29,675 nucleotides of DNA from Octopus sinensis (taxonomy: Eukaryota): NCBI RefSeq assembly GCF_006345805.1, contig NW_021836492.1:1-29675 (forward strand), written 5' to 3'. The notes under the pieces were generated by a model. The model did no database searches, was not told where the DNA came from, and saw only the letters and a list, made by a program, of their open reading frames with translations. Positions 90 to 27,947 of the stretch are shown here, one piece after another. The position numbers and the translations under genes were made by a program. Position 1 is the stretch's first letter. The number at the start of each line of letters is the position of its first letter.

Positions 90-675
90 ATGGTTTCTGA
101 TTACAAATATCTTGGGATCATACATATCATCATCTGGAAAAGACTTTCTAACTAGAAAGGGTATGGCCTGGTCAGCCTGTAATGACATGCATAAGATCTG
201 GTCATCAATCTAAGTAGAGACTTCAACTTGAAATCTTCAAAGCCACAGTCGAACCAATTCTACTATATGGTTCAGAACCCTGGACGTTATCAAAGAAGCT
301 TGAGAGGCGGTTGGATGGAACCTACACTCGCCTCCTTATGAGAGCTCAAAATCTCTCGTGGAAGCGCCATCCAACCAAAATGCAAATATATGGGAAACTA
401 CCACCTGTGTCATCTCTTGTGAAAGGTAGGAGAGTCCAGTTTGCTGGACATTGTTGTAGAGCTGAAAAAGAGATAATTTCTACTCTTCTCCTCTGGAAGC
501 CATCTGCTTGCGATACCAGAGGGCGCACACTCTCCTACCCTGATGTAATCTCCAGGGATACAGGCATCCAGCAACAGGACCTCCGTAATGCCATGATGGA
601 CCGTGAAGTCTGGCGTAGCATAGTAAATTCCATTGTCTCGACCACGGTCGAACAATGATGATGATGATGATAATA
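90..675 (+). mobile_element. 3' end of an RTE-like non-LTR retrotransposon (ORF2 RT C-terminus, frameshifted) with (TGA)n tail
   Basis: Read across frameshifts: YKYLGSYISSSGKDFLTRKGMAWSACNDMHKIW...FKATVEPILLYGSEPWTLSKKLERRLDGTYTRLLMRAQ...RRVQFAGHCCR...DREVWRSIV. The stop at 656-658 runs straight into a tgatgatgatga tandem tail. Confidence 0.85.
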
Positions 676-1064: not shown

Positions 1065-1687
1065 TATATGGGTGTGTTGTGCCCATTTGAACGTTTGAGA
1101 CAATATGTCGACAAAAAGCCGTCCTCCATACTCTACCAGCATGCCAAAGGGAAGGAAAGGAAGCACTCCGTCGGTTACGACGATGAGGGTTCCGGTTGAT
1201 CCGATCAACGGAACAACCTGCTCGTGAAATTAACGTGTAAGTGGCTGAGCACTCCACAGACACGTGTACCCTTAACGTAGTTCTCGGGGATATTCAAGCG
1301 TGACACAGAGAGTGACAAGGCGGCCCTTTGAAATACAGGTACAACAGAAACAGGAAGTAAAAGTGAGAGAAAGTTGTGGTGAAAGAGTACAGCAGGGATC
1401 ACCACCATCCCCTGCCGGAGCCTCGTGGAGCTTTTAGGTGTTTTCGCTCAATAAACACTCACAACACCCGGTCTGGGAATCGAAACCGCGATCCTATGAC
1501 CGCGAGTCCGCTGCCCTAACCACTGGGGCATTGCGCCTCCACTTGCATGCCAAAGACCAGCATGGAGGTAACCTGGGTCAACTTGACATCGGCATTTTAT
1601 CCAAGCACCCAAAGAAACCCAACACTCAGACAAATACAGGAGTACCTCATCATAAATGAAACATCCCCAGTACTAAATAGGAAATAA
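1065..1687 (+). pseudogene. Degenerate GIY-YIG endonuclease C-terminal half, probably from a Penelope-like element, interrupted by a SINE
   Basis: Removing SINE 1150-1544 and one TSD copy gives YMGVLCPFERLRQYVDKKPSSILYQHAKDQHGGNLGQLDIGILSKHPKKP(+1 frameshift)TLRQIQEYLIINETSPVLNRK*. This matches the YIG..R..H / S.L..H...H / IL / R..E..I...P.LN pattern of PLE GIY-YIG domains. Confidence 0.65.
1150..1544 (-). mobile_element. Full-length tRNA(Arg)-like SINE, family A, with 11-bp TSD
   Basis: Minus-strand head gtggaggcgcaatgccccagtggttagggcagcggacTCGcggtc...ggtttcgattccc (A/B boxes, TCG anticodon-like triplet). TSD gcatgccaaag at 1139-1149 and 1545-1555. Confidence 0.9.
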
Positions 1688-1788
1688 TATATGTAGTAGG
1701 TAATCATACCCCTACACCCACAGATTATATTTATATACGGGTAGAATAGTTAGTGTCGGCTGTTATGTAGATGTGTATGTGTGTGTGT

Positions 1789-1842
<54 letters not shown>

Positions 1843-1854
1843 ATAGGTATATTT

Positions 1855-1980
1855 TGGGGCATATTCTGATAAGAATATGCCCCAATAGATGATTACAGAA
1901 TATTTCCTTTTTGTATTTGTTTGCAAAGTTCTTCGCGAGATCTCGTGTGTTGAAGCAAATTTTGTTGTATCACGGAATGT
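1855..1980 (+). repeat. Repeat fragment with a GGGGCATATTC/GAATATGCCCC hairpin, same family as the 8595-8950 palindrome (candidate PLE pseudo-LTR)
   Basis: 1897-1975 aligns by eye to the reverse complement of about 8880-8950. It lies downstream of the GIY-YIG relic. Confidence 0.5.
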
Positions 1981-2151
1981 TACTACGTGAGAAGATAGAT
2001 AAATACACCCAAAGCAGAACTTGAAGTAGGGAAGGCGGACAGCGACGAAAGAACTTTGACAAAACTAGCTGATTCGTTGTTTCACCGACCGATTAATCTA
2101 ACAATCGATTAGTCAAGTGGTTAAATATTTAACCAATTGACAAATAATAAT

Positions 2152-2535
2152 GGAAGCACTCCGTCGGTTACGACGATGAGGGTTCCGGTTGATCCGATCA
2201 ACGGAACAGCCTGCTCGTGAAATTAACGTGTAAGTGGCTGAGCACTCCACAGACACGTGTACCCTTGACGTAGTTCTCGGGGATATTCAGCGTGACACAG
2301 AGAGTGACAAGGCCGGCCCTTTGAAATACAGGTACAACAGAAACAGGAAGTAAGAGTGAGAGAAAGTTGTGGTGAAAGAGTATAGCAGGGATCACTACCA
2401 TCCCTGCCGGAGCCTTGTGGAGCTTTTAGGTGTTTTCGCTCAATAAACACTCACAACGCCCGGTCTGGGAATCGAAACCGCGATCCTACGACCGCGAGTC
2501 CGTTGCCCTAACCACTGGACCATTGCGCCTCCACT
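2152..2535 (-). mobile_element. Second full-length family A SINE with 12-bp TSD
   Basis: Near-identical to 1160-1544. TSD acaaataataat at 2140-2151 and 2536-2547. Confidence 0.9.
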
Positions 2536-2960
2536 ACAAATAATAATAAAACTAGTGAAATAGAACCAGTGCGTGTGTCTGTTGTTGGCATAATGACCCT
2601 CCGCCCCAAAGAAAGATGAGTTAAGCTTGACTGGACATTGAAGGAGAAGCAAGGAGGTGATGATTCGTAACATCCTACTTTGGGTGTCACCTTGGTATAG
2701 ACATAGTTATATTGGTCACTCTGTGAAACAAGTGTGTTCATCAGTTAACAGATGGCGTTGGACGTCACCAAGAGGAAATATCACGTGACATGAAAAGTAA
2801 AGGTATGTGTTAGATCACGTGACGCCAGTCCAAGCAAGCTCGATCCAGTGATCTTTCGTCATTTAACTCTTTCAGTCATTGAACTCCGGCCATGATGGAG
2901 CACAGCCTTGAAGGGCTTAGGAAACCAAATCGAAGCCAGGACTTTTTAAGTTTAAGACGA

Positions 2961-3295
2961 TTGCTTCCCAACCACATTGTTCCGGGTTCAGTCCCACTGC
3001 ATGGCACCTTGGGCAAGTGTCTTCTACTATAGCTTCGGGTCGACCAAAGTCTTGTGGTAGATGGAAACTGAAAGTAGCCTGTCGTATATGTGTGTGTGTG
3101 TTTGTCCCCCTACCATCGTTTGACCACCGATATTGGTGTGTTTACGCCCTACTAACTTAGCGGATCAGCAATAGAGACCGATAGAATAAGTACTAGGCTT
3201 AAAAAGTATAAGTCCTGGCGTCGATTGTTCGACTAAAGTCGGTGCTACAGCATGGCCGCAGTCAAATGACCGAAACAAGTAAAACAATAAAGGAA
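2961..3295 (+). mobile_element. Family B SINE (tRNA head, CORE-like ccttgggcaag segment, internal microsatellite), 5'-truncated
   Basis: Matches about 15 other copies in the window; ends in the gaaacaagtaaaa tail. Confidence 0.85.
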
Positions 3296-3304
3296 TATAT
3301 ATAT

Positions 3305-3703
3305 TCTTTTCTTTTCTTTTACTCTTTTACTTGTTTCAGTTATTTGACTGCGGCCATGCTGGGGTACCGCCTTTAGTCGAACAAATCGACCCCAGGACTT
3401 ATTCTTTGTAAGCCTAGTACTTACTCTATCGGTCTATTTTGCTGATCCGCTACGTTAGGGGGGCGTAAACACACCAGCATCGGTTGTCAAGTGATGTGGG
3501 GGGGGGCGCAAACACACACACACACACACATATATATACGACAGGCTTCTTTCAGTTTCCGTCTAAAAAAATTCACTCACAACGCTTTGGTCAGCCCGAG
3601 GCTATAGTAGAAGACACTTGCCCAAGATGCCACGCAGTGGGACCGAACCCGAAACCATGTGATTGGTAAGCAAGCTTCTTACCACACAGTCACTCCAGCG
3701 CCT
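3305..3703 (-). mobile_element. Family B SINE, full length, tail-to-tail with 2961-3295
   Basis: Reverse complement of the family B consensus aggcgcaggagtggctgtgtggtaag...gactgaaacaagtaaaagag. Confidence 0.88.
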
Positions 3704-3731
3704 AAATATATACATATATATATATGGGCGC

Positions 3732-3732
<1 letters not shown>

Positions 3733-3766
<34 letters not shown>

Positions 3767-3790
3767 GTGTGTGTGTGTGTAGGAAGAAGA

Positions 3791-3839
<49 letters not shown>
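3733..3839. repeat. Compound (TG)n + (AGT)n microsatellite
   Basis: Directly visible. Confidence 0.95.
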
Positions 3840-4369
3840 AATAGTGCCTTGCCATGTTTTCTTCAGAAGTTTTAAAAGAAAAAGCAAGCATCAGCAGCAG
3901 AAGCTTAATTCTTTTTTCTTTATTCTTCTCCACCCGGTACTCGTTCCCCCCCCCCCTCCCCTCGCCCCCACCCACTTGTCCCCTCCCCCCCCCCTCTCAC
4001 CACAGAAAACAATAACACACAATTTCTTTCGTACATACATACCCTGACTTCACCCGAAAGAATTTTTGCATAAATCCATTTGATCCGCTTATACGACTCA
4101 CCCACTTTACAAATTCTCCCTTCCCTAACCCTCCCTCTTTATACCCGATTGTTTTACGTATCCCAGCCGCGCCGCACCCCCACCGACTAACCCCACCCCC
4201 CACAGACACACATACACTCACACACTCACACCGTCTTTCAATTCTTTTCCTTTTTCTTTCTTCTCTTCCTCTCTGTTCTATATTTAGGTTGTTTCTATTT
4301 TTAGCTCTCAACGTATTCCTCGGGATATCACTTCGACTCCCTTTCTTCGTGTTTTTATAAGGACCCCAG

Positions 4370-8593: not shown

Positions 8594-8594
8594 T

Positions 8595-8950
8595 GTTAAT
8601 ATATTTTCTGTTGTGTCTAGGAAGAGTCATTTTCTTTTTGTGCCTTACAATTTAACACACACACCGGTAAAATTTCCACTTATTTTCATTTTTATTTTTC
8701 TAAAATTTTCATGGCGTCTTGCAACCTTTAAAATTTTCGTTGCGTCTTGCAACCTTTTCAATAGTCAAGACTATTGAAAAGGTTGCAAGATGCAACGAAA
8801 ATTTTAGAAAAAAAGAAATAAAAAATAAGTGGAAATTTTACCGGTGAGTAAAAAGGCACGAAAAGAAAATTACTCTCCCCAGACACAGCAGAATATGTTT
8901 CAACAAAGAATCTTGCAAACCAAATCCAAAAATGAAATATATTTTCTATT
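8595..8950. repeat. Long inverted repeat centred at 8767-8768 with an internal 28-29 bp tandem duplication
   Basis: taaaattttcgttgcgtcttgcaaccttttcaatagtc-aa-gactattgaaaaggttgcaagatgcaacgaaaatttta. Arms continue imperfectly to about 8600 and 8900. Confidence 0.9.
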
Positions 8951-13568: not shown

Positions 13569-13600
13569 TAATAATATAATAAAATAATGATAATAATAAA
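13415..13600. repeat. (TA)n/(TG)n and (TAA)n microsatellites
   Basis: Directly visible. Confidence 0.95.
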
Positions 13601-13873
13601 AGGGTAAAATTAATTAATTAATCAATCAATTAATTAATAATTTTACCAAGTAGATCTGTACGTTATAATAAACTTTATAGGTAAAATTATACAAATATTC
13701 TATAATTATAAACATAATTATAATTAGGGGTCAAGTAATTGCTTCACCACATACCGAATTTAGAAATAGGAGTTAAAAATTCCTTTTCTACTACCGTAAG
13801 AATCTCCCAGACAGTATCACACTTTTTTACGTAGGCAAAGAGAAAAATAATGAATCCACACGACTCCGATTAC

Positions 13874-13933
13874 CTACAGACGCGTTCCGAGATTAAAGTA
13901 TTTAATTTACTTACTTTCCCGTCATCAGTGTAG
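13874..13933 (-). ncRNA. Type I hammerhead motif (F1) with one core substitution (GAAA to GGAA)
   Basis: ctaca CTGATGA c GGGA aagta..tactt taa TCTC GGAA CGCG TC tgtag. Stem I is perfect. Confidence 0.7.
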
Positions 13934-14161
13934 CATTTCCATTATAAAATTTGAAAGTGCTAGAGTTAAATACGTACAGGATCGATGACGGGAAGTAAGT
14001 AAATAAAATACTTTAATCTCGAAACGCGTCTGTAGGTAATCGGAGTCGTGTTGATTCGGTATTTTTCTCTTTTTGCCTACGTAAAAAACTGTGATACTGT
14101 CTGGGAGGTTTTTACGGTAGTAGAAAAGGAATTTTTAAACTCCTATTTCTAAATTCGGTAT

Positions 14162-14380
14162 TACTCTTTACTCTCTTTTACTTGTTCCAATCATTTACTG
14201 CGGCCATGCTGGAGCACCGCCTTTAATCGAGCAACTGGACCCCGGGAATTATTCTTTTGTAAGCCCAGTACTTATTCTATTGGTCTCTTTTGCCGAACCG
14301 CTAAGTGATGGGGACGTAAACACACCAGCATCGGTTGTCAAGCAATGCTAGGGGGACAAACACAGACACACAAACACACA

Positions 14381-14427
<47 letters not shown>

Positions 14428-14608
14428 TATATACACATATTATACGACGGGCGTCTTTCAGTTTCCGTCTACCAAATCCACTCACAAGGCTTTGGTCGGC
14501 CCGAGGCTATTGTAGAGAAGACACTTGCCCAAGGTGCCACGCAGTGGGATGAACCCCGGAACCATGTGGTTGGAACAACCTACTTACCACACAGCCACTC
14601 CTGCGCCT
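14162..14608 (-). mobile_element. Family B SINE, full length, inserted into the F1 right arm
   Basis: F1 sequence resumes at 14609 (gtgaagcaattagctgacccctaattataat). Confidence 0.9.
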
Positions 14609-14704
14609 ATGTGAAGCAATTAGCTGACCCCTAATTATAATTATCACACATTCCTTCCAAGCACTGCTGTAAATAGCGAATGTGAACTAAAACGTTAAAA
14701 CTTA

Positions 14705-16204: not shown

Positions 16205-16705
16205 TACTCTTTTACTTGTTTCAGTCATTTGACTGCGGCCATGCTGGAGCACCGCCTTTAGTCGAGCAAATCGACCCCAGGACTTATTCTTTTTGTAAGC
16301 CCAGTACTTATTCTATCGGTCTCTTTTGCCGAACCGCTAAGTGACGGGGACGTAAACACACCAGGCATCGGGGGTCAAGCAATGCTAGGGGGACAAACAC
16401 AGACACACAAACACACACATACATATAATATATACACATATATACGACAGGCTTCTTTCAGTTTCCGTCTACCAATCCACTCACAAGGCATTGGTCGGTC
16501 CGGGGCTATAGCAGAAGACACTTGCCCAAGATGCCACGCAGTGGGGCTGAACCCGGAACCATGTGGTTGGTTAGCAAGCTACTTACCACACAGCTACTCC
16601 TGATATATATATATATATAGTGTCTTTTACTTGTTTCAATTATTAGACTGCGGTCATGCTGGGGCACCGCTTGAAGAATTTTCATTTGAATGAATCGACC
16701 CCAGA
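16205..16705 (-). mobile_element. Family B SINE (16205-16602) plus a second 3' fragment (16625-16705)
   Basis: Matches the family B reverse complement. Confidence 0.85.
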
Positions 16706-19531: not shown

Positions 19532-19946
19532 TTACTCTTTTACTATTTTACTTGTTTAAGGCATTTGACTGTGGCCATGCTGGAGCACCACCTTTAGTCG
19601 ATTGAGCAAATCGACCCCAGGACTTATTCTTTGTAAGCCTAGTACTTATTCTATCGCTCTCTTTTGCCGAACCGCTAAGTTACGGGGACGTAAACACACC
19701 GGCATCGGTTGTCAAGCGATGTTGGGGGGACAAGCACAGACACACAAACATATACACACACACTTACATATATACATATATACGACGGGCTTCTTTCATT
19801 TTACGTCTACCAAATCCACTCACAAGGCTTTGGTCGACCCGAGGCTATAATAGAAGACACTCGCCCAAGGTGCCATGCAGTGGGACTGAACCCGGAACCA
19901 TATGGTTCGTAAGCAAGCTACTTACCACACAGCCACTCCTACGCCT
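19532..19946 (-). mobile_element. Family B SINE, full length
   Basis: Consensus match. Confidence 0.88.
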
Positions 19947-20163
19947 ATGATATTTTCAATGGACATTGTATGAAAATTCCATAACATTTTATATATTTTC
20001 GCAATGCCAGTTTCAGTCCCGTCTTGGGATTTCATCAACGAGTGTAGATCTGCTTTCAATGTGAATGAATAAATGAATAGTCTACTTATACATCCACAAT
20101 TACAAACGGTTAAAGAAACGGATAGACCAACTTGCATATATAACGTGGATGAAAGGTAGAGAA

Positions 20164-21159: not shown

Positions 21160-22090
21160 GGTTTCAAAGTTTGGCACAAGGCCAGCAAGTTCTGGGGAAT
21201 GAGTAATCGATTACATCAACGGCAATGCTTGACTGGTTCTTATTTTATCGACCCCAAAAAAGAACGAAATGCAAAAACGACCTCGACGGAATTTGAACTC
21301 AGAACTCAGAAGACGGACGAAATGCCGCTGAGTATTTTGTCCGGCGTGCCACCGTTTCTGCCAGCTCGCAGCCTCAAAGTTTGTATTTACATCAGTTTCG
21401 AATTTTAGCACGAGTCTAGCAATTTCAGGGAAGGGAATAAGTCGATGGCATCACCCCCATTGACCAACTAGTATTTATTTTATCGACCCCGAGAGAACGA
21501 AAGGTAAAGTCGACCTCGGCGGAATTTGAACTCAGAACATAAAGGCAGAAAAAATGCCACTGAGCATCTTGGTCGGCGTGCTAACGTCTCTACAGCTCGC
21601 CGTCTTACAAATATTCAAATATTAATAAAAACGTTAAGGCGGCGAGCTGGCAGAAACGTTAGCACGCCGGGCGAAATGCGTAGTCGTATTCCGTCTGCCG
21701 TCACGTTCAAATTCAGCGGGGAACCTTGGGCAAGTGTCTTCTACTACAGCCTCGGACTGACCAAAGCCTTGTGAGTGGATTTGCTAAACGGAAACTGAAA
21801 GAATCCTGTCATGGATATATATATATATATATATATATACGTATGTGCGTGTGTGTGCGTGTGTGCGTGTGTGTGTGCGTGTGTGTGTATGTGTGAAAAT
21901 GTGTGCGTTTGTCCCCCACTACTGCTTGACAACCGGTGTTGTGTTTATGCCCTGTGACTTAGCGGTTCGGCAAAGGAGACCGACAGAATAGATATCAGGC
22001 TTAAGACAAAATAAGCACTGGAGTCGATACGTTCGACTAAAATTCTTCTTGGGGGTGCTCCAGCAGGGCCGCAGTCAAATAACTGAAATT
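21160..22090. mobile_element. SINE cluster: two family D copies (21160-21372 and 21395-21606, -), a D head (21637-21713, +) joined to a family B body (21723-22090, +)
   Basis: Segments align to the family D and B copies elsewhere in the window. Confidence 0.75.
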
Positions 22091-22532: not shown

Positions 22533-22780
22533 GCTTTATTAATAAAACTATAAAGACATTACAAAAACTGTTACTCAGAGTTTCACGTTACCGTTTGTCG
22601 GACAGTTTTGGTTGAAAATAGAACAAAATATGAACCATATTTTGTTCCATTCTCAACCAAAACTGTCCGACAAAAGGGAACGTGAAACTCTGAGTAAGAG
22701 TTTTTGTGATATCTTTGCAGCTTTATAAATAAAGCCTCTAGTATTCGAGTACTATTTTCTTCCACTTTGTTTCGCATTTA
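22533..22780. mobile_element. About 200-bp hairpin of family F2 with an HHR-like motif in each arm
   Basis: Arms 22533-22632 and 22636-22735 with a 3-nt loop. Minus: aaaactgt CCGACAA acg gtaa cgt GAAA ctctgag TA acagtttt. Plus: aaaactgt CCGACAA aag ggaa cgt GAAA ctctgag TA agagtttt. Confidence 0.85.
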
Positions 22781-23018: not shown

Positions 23019-23056
<38 letters not shown>

Positions 23057-23174
23057 GATCTCATTCGTCTGTTTGAATTCGGAAGTACTGGTCGTTGGAT
23101 ATACGTTGTCTGATGTCGCCTGGTCAGATAAGTATGTTAATTTTTCAGTGCTCTCAAATTTAATATTTTCAATT

Positions 23175-23257
23175 ACTGTACTGAAGACGAGAATGAGAGA
23201 GTAGAAATAGGATTTTACATTTTTCACATCTCTCTAACTCCGAAACGCGTATATAGT
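23175..23257 (+). ncRNA. Type I hammerhead ribozyme, canonical core (F1 family, diverged copy within 23125-23430)
   Basis: Stem I actgta/tatagt; CTGAAGA 23181-23187; stem II GAG..GAGAGA/TCTCTC..CTC with a C.C mismatch at its base; GAAA 23242-23245; CGCG; GUA site ending at 23251. Confidence 0.75.
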
Positions 23258-23480
23258 TAATCAAAGCCGGGTGGATTCGTTATTTTTTCTCTCTTCTTTA
23301 TCTGCGTGAGTTGTTGAGTATTGCTGTTTGGGAGATTTTTTTATGGTAGTGAAATTGTAGTTGTTAACTGGTATATCTAAATTTCGGTATGTGGTGATGC
23401 AATTTTTGCTGAACCCTAATTATAATTATACTCATAATTATAGAAGTAATATATATATATATATATATTATAGATATATA

Positions 23481-23520
<40 letters not shown>

Positions 23521-25853: not shown

Positions 25854-25892
25854 ATAAAGCATCCAGCAATATCTTAGAATTTATACAGATAT

Positions 25893-26303
25893 AGGCGCAG
25901 GAGTGGCTGTGTGGTAAGTAGCTTGTCTACCAACCACATGGTTCCGGGTTCAGTCCCACTGCGTGGCACCTTGGGCGAGTGTCTCCTACTATAGCCTCGG
26001 GCCGACCAAAGCCTTGTGAGTGGATTTGGTAGACGGAAACTGAAAGAATCCCGTCGTATATATGTATATATATATATGCGTGTGTGTGTGTTTGTTTGTA
26101 TGTATTTGTCCCCCTAGCATTGCTTGACAACCGATGCTGGTGTGTTTATGTCCCCGTTACTTAGCGGTTCGGTAAAAGAGACCGATAAAATAAGTACTGG
26201 GCTTACAAAAGAATAAGTCCCGGGGTCGATTTGCTCGATTAAAGGCGGTGCTCCAGCACGGCCGCAGTCAAATGACTGAAACAAGTAAAAGAGTAAAAGA
26301 GTA
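25893..26303 (+). mobile_element. Family B SINE, full length
   Basis: Consensus match. Confidence 0.9.
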
Positions 26304-26423
26304 TACAATATCGATTCTCCAGAACATCTGGTTCCAGATCCTTTCCTGATTAGTGATGTTTCCGAATCAAAAATAGTCACCTAAGTCAACACACACGAAA
26401 TTAAACAAATATTAAATTTATTT

Positions 26424-27897: not shown

Positions 27898-27947
27898 ATT
27901 CATCAGACAAGCTGTTTCGACCTGATGTGCTCTCTTCAGAAGTGAAT
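27898..27947 (-). ncRNA. Type I hammerhead motif, canonical core with imperfect stems (family F5)
   Basis: attcactt CTGAAGA gagc acatca ggtc GAAA cagcttg TC tgatgaat. GUC site; stem I pairs only distally (attca/tgaat); one G.G mismatch in stem II. Confidence 0.6.

What the first reader, a model, noticed from the sequence alone, without database searches (positions are those of the whole stretch)
23175..23257. Compensatory changes between diverged F1 hammerheads
Compared with 13874-13933, stem I changes from ctaca/tgtag to ctgta/tatag and stem II is almost fully rewritten yet still pairs. N7 changes U to A and the site changes GUC to GUA, both tolerated positions. CUGA-GA, the following extra C and the CGCG of stem III are retained. 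This is internal evidence of selection on ribozyme structure.
Basis: seen in the sequence. Interest (0 to 1): 0.7.

Follow-up and report, generated by a model that had tools for sequence, protein, structure and literature searches.

The report
Decayed hammerhead in Penelope-type retrozyme family

Summary
The letters are as described, but the reading needs correcting. 23175-23257 is a type I hammerhead with a palindromic stem III, inside a 5'-truncated copy (23055-23445) of a dispersed, non-coding ~540-590-nt repeat. At least 583 genomic copies have an exact core (control 8). Selection on structure is real at family level: across 88 copies stem I is 94.8% paired versus 76.4% shuffled, and 10 subfamily majorities are 98% Watson-Crick versus 59%. 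The 'retained extra C' is not retained. It is a private change of G10.1 in this copy (1 of 32 genome matches; 26 have G) that leaves a C·C mismatch. 'tatag' is probably also private (subfamily tacag, 28 of 30), and the reference copy has an A13-to-G lesion. The real bulge of the other subfamily is a published feature of Penelope-element hammerheads. Partial tandems, back-to-back arms with two fixed ends (36 of 41) and (TA)n targets point to a non-LTR retrozyme likely moved by a Penelope-type enzyme. Cleavage is untested. Extras: twin AAU/UAA internal loops, and amplified subfamilies with a non-Watson-Crick 10.1·11.1 pair. This scan already noted similar retrozyme families elsewhere in this genome.

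The parts
23055..23445 (+). 5'-truncated copy (~390 of ~570 nt) of the non-coding repeat, subfamily A; ends at the 'short' 3' end site
   Evidence: 87-88% to L019/L003 over this span; 40 of 1654 first-look candidates scored, best 30 loci at 86-100% including the window itself
23175..23180 (+). stem I 5' strand (ACUGUA)
   Evidence: pairs with 23252-23257; covariation
23181..23187 (+). core C3-U4-G5-A6-A7-G8-A9
23188..23188 (+). position 10.1: C in this copy only (subfamily G); gives a C·C mismatch with 23241
23189..23241 (+). stem II: 3 bp, AAU/UAA 3x3 internal loop (23192-23194 / 23235-23237), long distal hairpin
23242..23251 (+). G12-A13-A14, palindromic ACGCGU (stem III), U16.1, A17; predicted cleavage after 23251
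23252..23262 (+). stem I 3' strand (T23254 minority state), then UAA of the stem I internal loop and UC of the helix extension
23365..23445 (+). conserved 3' block and AT-rich end (approximate start); likely reverse-transcription start region (inferred)
   Evidence: 1193 exact genome matches of a 32-nt pattern from the block, control 0; identical runs between subfamilies
23021..23051 (.). (TA)n left of the copy
23449..23520 (.). (TA)n right of the copy, target microsatellite
13984..14161 (+). back-to-back inverted subfamily B arm, truncated at C3 (no stem I 5' strand), cut at 14161 by an unrelated abundant repeat

Best explanation
The stretch is a decayed copy of a type I hammerhead carried by a protein-free ~540-590-nt repeat (a non-LTR retrozyme) that is likely copied into (TA)n by a Penelope-like element's enzyme, and whose ribozyme is predicted to cut as a dimer. 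Shown: the family, its copy number, stem I covariation, the palindromic stem III, partial tandems, two-armed insertions, (TA)n ends and no long ORF of its own. Inferred: tandem or read-through transcripts let two hammerheads pair through ACGCGU, cut after H17 and release a unit-length RNA that may circularise; a Penelope-type RT/GIY-YIG protein primes at nicked (TA)n from two fixed sites of the RNA (~190 and ~295 nt after the cut site). Only source copies with a working fold multiply, so subfamilies differ by compensatory pairs while each inserted copy, like this one, then decays.
For: 583 exact core matches vs 8 plus 131 vs 0 with the palindrome lengthened by two bases. Stem I: 94.8% paired in 88 copies vs shuffle mean 76.4%, max 80.7% of 5000; 10 cluster majorities 98% WC vs 59%, 0 of 20000 shuffles reach it; slid registers 15-41%. 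Tree from sequence lacking the tested sites shows stepwise CUACA/UGUGG, CUAUA/UAUAG, CUGUA/UACAG, CUGUG/CACAG states and nests this copy in a starred (99/98) 27-row clade dominated by G-C and CUGUA/UACAG copies. Predicted homodimer pairs the palindromes and is 7.3 and 7.7 kcal/mol below two monomers. Of 142 copies: 27 partial tandem (period 507-595), 49 with an upstream inverted arm, 119 with (TA)4+ in 360 nt downstream vs 37% background. 36 of 41 classifiable back-to-back pairs have one short and one long end, expected 20.5, P 4e-7. Unit circles fold at z -6.6, -5.9, -2.9 (3 of 3 tested, 30 shuffles each). A large C-terminal-endonuclease Penelope-like family with 727-aa open frames is present. 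Literature: PMC4209133, PMC7229834, PMC8557442, 10.64898/2026.07.22.740005.
Against: No cleavage data; 8 of 9 Xenopus retrozyme dimers did not cleave in vitro and PLE hammerheads are slow. 5' ends of copies do not pile up at the cut site (1 of 113 truncated pieces within 4 nt). No autonomous element carrying this repeat as its terminal repeat was found; the abundant Penelope-like family has a different hammerhead and 3' end (only 1 of 30 loci, the one that seeded the search, holds this family). Core-blind conservation is borderline (P 0.07). Long arrays were not seen in the loci (at most two complete hammerheads in tandem). About half of pattern-found copies have a non-Watson-Crick first pair of stem II, which canonical hammerheads conserve as G-C.
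Confidence: 0.8

Rival explanations
1. These are solo or truncated terminal repeats (pLTRs) of an autonomous Penelope-like element that was not sampled, rather than a protein-free retrozyme.
For: Same insertion anatomy as PLEs (PMC8557442); most min-hammerheads in genomes are truncated PLEs (PMC4209133); PLE reading frames lie beside the family in L085, L093, L117, L158.
Against: The unit repeats head-to-tail with no coding part (period 507-595). The adjacent PLEs have unrelated 3' ends or are interrupted by the repeat. No upstream PLE frame ran into the unit in the 60 pattern hits fetched with 3.5 kb upstream (L158 is an insertion into an old PLE).
Confidence: 0.1
2. The fold is selected for a non-catalytic job (a structure recognised by the reverse transcriptase, or protection of the RNA), and cleavage is vestigial.
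For: Non-WC 10.1·11.1 in amplified subfamilies; no 5'-end footprint at the cut; hammerhead cleavage was not needed for insertion by an anole PLE in vitro (PMC11167929).
Against: Catalytic positions are 15 of 15 identical between subfamily majorities while N7 and H17 vary exactly as tolerated; H17 was never G in the majority columns of the similarity-found sets; the palindrome is kept when lengthened.
Confidence: 0.08
3. Neutral divergence of an AT-rich repeat with chance pairing.
For: Single copies fold no better than shuffles; changes are mostly transitions in an RY-alternating stem.
Against: Shuffles that keep column composition never reach the observed pairing; control patterns 8 and 0.
Confidence: 0.02

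Closest known systems
Metazoan non-LTR retrozymes (coral, mussel, axolotl: PMC7229834, passages and section 14 read; vertebrate survey 10.64898/2026.07.22.740005, parts 1-3 of 5 read)
   Same: Protein-free, AT-rich (31-34% GC), strongly self-paired unit with one type I hammerhead; head-to-tail copies; coexists with autonomous PLEs.
   Different: Unit 507-595 nt (invertebrate circles reported ~170-400 nt, vertebrate consensus up to 972); mostly dispersed partial tandems and back-to-back arms rather than long arrays; circular RNA not shown.
Hammerheads of Penelope-like elements (Cervera and de la Pena 2014, PMC4209133; parts 1-2 of 4 and supplement file 2 part 2 read; file 1 not searchable)
   Same: CUGANGA-H bulge after A9, long stem II, palindromic stem III (CGCG loop also in Aedes), opposite-strand pairs 100-700 bp apart, many subfamilies with compensatory changes.
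   Different: Bulge present in only some subfamilies here; the 'highly conserved G10.1-C11.1' is replaced by A·C, C·A or A·A in about half of copies; twin AAU/UAA loops are not in the passages read; no ORF.
Dolichopoda pDo500 satellite hammerhead (PMC2837043, passages)
   Same: The same kind of evidence is published: hammerhead region more conserved than the rest, compensatory stem changes, double-hammerhead fold.
   Different: Satellite arrays in crickets; here dispersed insertions with a Penelope footprint.
Non-autonomous PLEs such as MRC1 and the PLE 'tail' (PMC8557442, passages)
   Same: Head-to-tail and inverted 5'-truncated copies, extension at only one end, (TA)n bias.
   Different: Extension here is ~100 nt rather than 30-40 bp; no 3' similarity to an autonomous family was found.

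Membership tests
Type I hammerhead ribozyme | Core CUGANGA / GAAA / UH in type I order | tested here: met
   (this copy intact; reference copy has A13 to G)
Type I hammerhead ribozyme | Stem I supported by covariation | tested here: met
Type I hammerhead ribozyme | Stem II closed by G10.1-C11.1 | tested here: inconclusive
   Met in subfamily A majority and in B behind the bulge, G·C ends in 36 of 88 pattern copies; not met in this copy (C·C) nor in several subfamilies
Type I hammerhead ribozyme | Rfam hammerhead model match | tested here: not met
   no hit at either copy up to E 1; long stem II and minimal stem III fall outside the models (inference)
Type I hammerhead ribozyme | Self-cleavage at H17 | not testable with these tools
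   needs an assay; indirect 5'-end footprint absent
Dimer-type (palindromic stem III) hammerhead | Self-complementary 15.1-16.1 segment | tested here: met
   ACGCGU, and ACGCGCGU in 131 copies
Non-LTR retrozyme | Non-coding unit with one hammerhead, repeated head-to-tail | tested here: met
   27 of 142 copies partial tandem; complete two-hammerhead tandems in L052/L057, L064, L086
Non-LTR retrozyme | Highly self-paired unit | tested here: met
   z -2.9 to -6.6 in 3 of 3
Non-LTR retrozyme | Expressed as linear and circular unit RNA | tested here: inconclusive
   only contigs of runs guessed to be RNA
Penelope-like element, non-autonomous | 5' truncation, partial tandems, inverted copy, tail at one end, (TA)n target | tested here: met
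Penelope-like element, non-autonomous | Similarity to the pLTR of an autonomous family | tested here: not met
   none with the one family examined in depth (30 loci) or two other PLE loci; other families not searched
Penelope-like element, autonomous | RT plus GIY-YIG ORF between pLTRs | tested here: not met
   no such ORF in the unit or window copy

The most novel reading that the evidence does not exclude
This family is a new structural variant of dimeric hammerhead: two conserved 3x3 AAU/UAA internal loops, one six pairs out on stem I and one three to four pairs out on stem II, dock against each other as a tertiary clamp that lets the core work with A·C, C·A or A·A in place of the G10.1-C11.1 pair, and dozens of natural subfamilies record a stepwise, fully resolvable path of compensatory evolution of a ribozyme.
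Probability: 0.25. Interest if true: 0.55.

Novelty: new member of a known kind. Interest (0 to 1): 0.3.

Why it matters
As it stands it is an ordinary example: hammerheads with compensatory changes in Penelope-type repeats are published. It matters modestly because I found no paper on such a family in octopus, because the many subfamilies give a natural mutational series for a dimer-type hammerhead, and because it corrects a tempting error: comparing two decayed copies made a private mutation look like a conserved insertion. If the twin internal loops prove to be a tertiary contact that compensates for a missing G10.1-C11.1 pair, hammerhead search descriptors that demand that pair miss real ribozymes.

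Tried and rejected
Rfam scan: no hammerhead hit at either copy. Folding single copies: not significant. RNA evidence: no RNA holder listed on record; contigs of runs guessed to be RNA carry family sequence and some joints that go back by about one unit, but genomic partial tandems give the same joints, so this is no evidence for or against expression or circles; one search likewise gave only pooled family contigs (C dominates at 23254) and could not place this locus in other samples. 5'-end pile-up at the cut site: first attempt swamped by microsatellites (discarded), clean repeat negative. Autonomous partner: L085 looked like a template-switch chimera with a PLE, but that PLE has its own hammerhead and the junction keeps a TA remnant, so a shared target is as likely. 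Pfam gave nothing for the 727-aa PLE frame or two fragments and GIY-YIG for one neighbouring fragment; the Neptune/Nematis-like label rests on domain order and a cysteine linker motif as described in PMC8557442, not on a tree. That the C at 23188 is an ancestral state kept from the older C·A lineage was considered and rejected by the tree. In one search the stem label printed for the window row was off by one base; the tree input was not affected. Rows dropped: 3 of 91 pattern hits unrelated to the family, 2 duplicate loci in subfamily B, 9 of 50 arm pairs unclassifiable. Lunse et al. 2017 on dimeric PLE hammerheads could not be read and may describe 10.1·11.1 or loop variants; supplement file 1 of PMC4209133 and bioRxiv supplements were not seen.

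Full report
Observation. The sequence at 23175-23257 reads stem I 5' (ACUGUA), CUGAAGA, C, a 53-nt stem II region, GAAA, CGCG, UA, stem I 3'. The reference at 13874-13933 lies on the minus strand and reads ctaca CUGAUGA C ... GGAAC GCG UC ugtag. The two regions are homologous over about 205 nt at 73%. Neither folds better than shuffles and Rfam lists neither, so two copies alone prove little.

The family. The window lies in a 2.72-Gb animal genome (octopus-like by my recall of its repeats and by earlier scan notes, not established by a call). DNA searches gave 30 loci for the 23175 copy (subfamily A) and 30 for the 13874 copy (subfamily B). An exact pattern CUGAWGA-N26-56-GAAACGCGUH matches 583 times against 8 for the control; a 32-nt pattern from the 3' part of the element matches 1193 times against 0. 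Of 91 distinct pattern hits examined (from the first 100 listed), 88 are one family that splits into 10 clusters of two or more copies plus singletons.

In subfamily A the base after A9 is G in 25, A in 3 and C in 1 copy, the window's; genome-wide the exact context gives G 26, A 4, T 1, C 1 of 32 and the C form is unique. That G is G10.1, pairing with C11.1 in GGAG/CUCC, so this copy carries a C·C mismatch, not a bulge. T23254 is C in 28 of 30 copies. An older sister lineage does have C after A9 and CUAUA/UAUAG, but a 46-row tree built without the tested sites puts the window copy inside a starred (99/98) clade of 27 rows that are mostly G-C and CUGUA/UACAG, so both changes are best read as private decay. 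Subfamily B has a true bulge (T 14, C 7, G 2 of the 23 copies with a base there) before a four-pair GAGA/UCUC stem, and the reference copy has a private A13-to-G change (1 of 28). A bulged base between A9 and 10.1 is a published hallmark of Penelope-element hammerheads (PMC4209133).

Stem I was not part of the search pattern, yet its first five pairs are 94.8% paired in 88 copies (87.5% Watson-Crick) against 76.4% (53.6%) when 3' strands are shuffled, never reached in 5000 shuffles; slid registers give 15-41%; the 10 cluster majorities are 98% Watson-Crick against 59%, 0 of 20000. Shuffles ignore relatedness, but 12 different fully paired haplotypes recur in two or more copies and the trees show stepwise changes on separate branches. 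Between the A and B majorities three of six stem I pairs change on both sides. The core differs from the subfamily majority at 8 of 328 cells against 486 of 7538 elsewhere in A (P 0.017) and 9 of 307 against 344 of 5839 in B (P 0.036). Between majorities, core plus palindrome is 15 of 15 identical against 193 of 260 (P 0.011), but a 3' block is as conserved, with a 20-nt identical run. In 60 loci picked by the 3' block alone, 15 span the ribozyme: core 9 of 165 differences against 205 of 2058 in flanks (P 0.07; one copy with a deletion contributes several). The refutation test is thus passed, moderately. Only 17 of 30 A copies and 10 of 28 B copies keep an exact core and five stem I pairs: copies decay after insertion.

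Anatomy of the ribozyme. Stem III is the palindrome ACGCGU; 131 further copies have ACGCGCGU (control 0; CG slippage can make this, but it spread as a sublineage). Predicted homodimers pair the palindromes, as described for PLE hammerheads (PMC4209133; PMC6765202; PMC3088659). Two features go beyond the passages I read. First, stem I is six pairs, then U·U (78 of 88), A·A (50), A·A (79), then two more pairs (79 and 73 paired); stem II has UAA at a fixed distance from G12 (87, 85, 86 of 88) facing A-R-U, so both stems carry a similar 3x3 AAU/UAA loop. Second, the bases after A9 and before G12 are G·C 36, A·C 17, C·A 14, A·A 6, T·C 4, G·A 4, T·A 3, other 4, with A·C, C·A and A·A marking whole clusters; an unrelated abundant PLE also has A and A at these places. 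Searches showed no paper on either feature, but Lunse et al. 2017 was not available. So the C·C of this copy is private but not certainly lethal.

Anatomy of the element. The unit repeats at 507-595 nt; of 142 copies 27 show a partial tandem, 49 an upstream inverted arm and 119 a (TA)n run downstream (37% background), with 3' ends in two groups about 190 and 295 nt after the cut site. Following a lead from earlier scan notes I tested the two-arm rule: 36 of 41 classifiable back-to-back pairs have one short and one long end (P 4e-7), like the one-ended PLE tail (PMC8557442) and internal RT initiation (PMC11167929). The window shows both forms: a single truncated A copy between two (TA)n runs (23055-23445) and a back-to-back B pair (13591-13985 minus, 13984-14161 plus). 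Unit-length circles fold at z -6.6, -5.9 and -2.9. No long ORF belongs to the unit. PLE coding fragments lie near several copies; one family is very abundant (25026 first-look candidates, 132 scored, frames of 727 aa) but has a different hammerhead and 3' end, so the mobilising partner is not identified.

Mechanism. Shown: family, covariation, palindrome, insertion footprint. Inferred: dimer-dependent cleavage releases unit RNA, possibly circular; a Penelope-type RT/endonuclease pastes it into (TA)n from two start sites; selection acts on multiplying source copies. Against: no 5'-end pile-up at the cut (1 of 113), no usable RNA data, low or absent activity of many published relatives.

Verdict. 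A new member of a known kind (non-LTR retrozyme or non-autonomous PLE with a dimer-type type I hammerhead). Family-level selection is supported; the highlighted extra C is an artefact of comparing decayed copies. Searches for octopus plus hammerhead gave no description of the family, and a sequence look-up in earlier scan notes found nothing, though similar retrozyme families in this genome were noted. Interest 0.3.

Noticed in passing
window 27898-27947 (-): A second, unrelated type I hammerhead-like motif (CUGAAGA, short stem II, GAAAC-AGCUU-GUC); weak Rfam Hammerhead_1 hit, 21.5 bits, E 0.68.
   Followed up: no
L123-L152 (e.g. L148 oriented ~3377), L153-L156: Very abundant young Penelope-like family with C-terminal endonuclease, 727-aa open frames and a near-invariant minimal hammerhead CUGAUGA-A-CG-GCAA-CG-A-GAAAC-UC with only a two-pair stem II flanked by A and A; Pfam gives no hit.
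   Followed up: partly
L085 / L122 ~1250-3980 (oriented): A two-armed family insertion abuts the 5'-truncated end of that PLE with almost no (TA)n between; chimera or shared target.
   Followed up: partly
L158 2207-3764: Family copy inserted inside the endonuclease region of an older PLE.
   Followed up: partly
L250, L252 and other hits: Other, apparently unrelated hammerhead families with the ACGCGCGU palindrome and long stem II, some in tandem or inverted pairs.
   Followed up: no
L111, L119, L121, L235, L245; window 13984: Several copies are 5'-truncated right at C3 of the core (5 of 113 in an 11-nt window), perhaps microhomology at stem I; not clearly above background.
   Followed up: partly
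window 218-658 (+): 146-aa C-terminal fragment resembling an RTE-type LINE protein (label recalled).
   Followed up: no
window 8594-8905, 21565-21678, 22579-22687: Long palindromic or hairpin elements that draw spurious miRNA hits, probably MITE-like or inverted SINE pieces.
   Followed up: no
window, many copies (e.g. 14162-14611, 16205-16619, 19532-19949, 25883-26305): Abundant ~420-nt SINE-like repeat with an internal (CA)n/(TA)n tract; one copy cuts the B arm at 14161.
   Followed up: no
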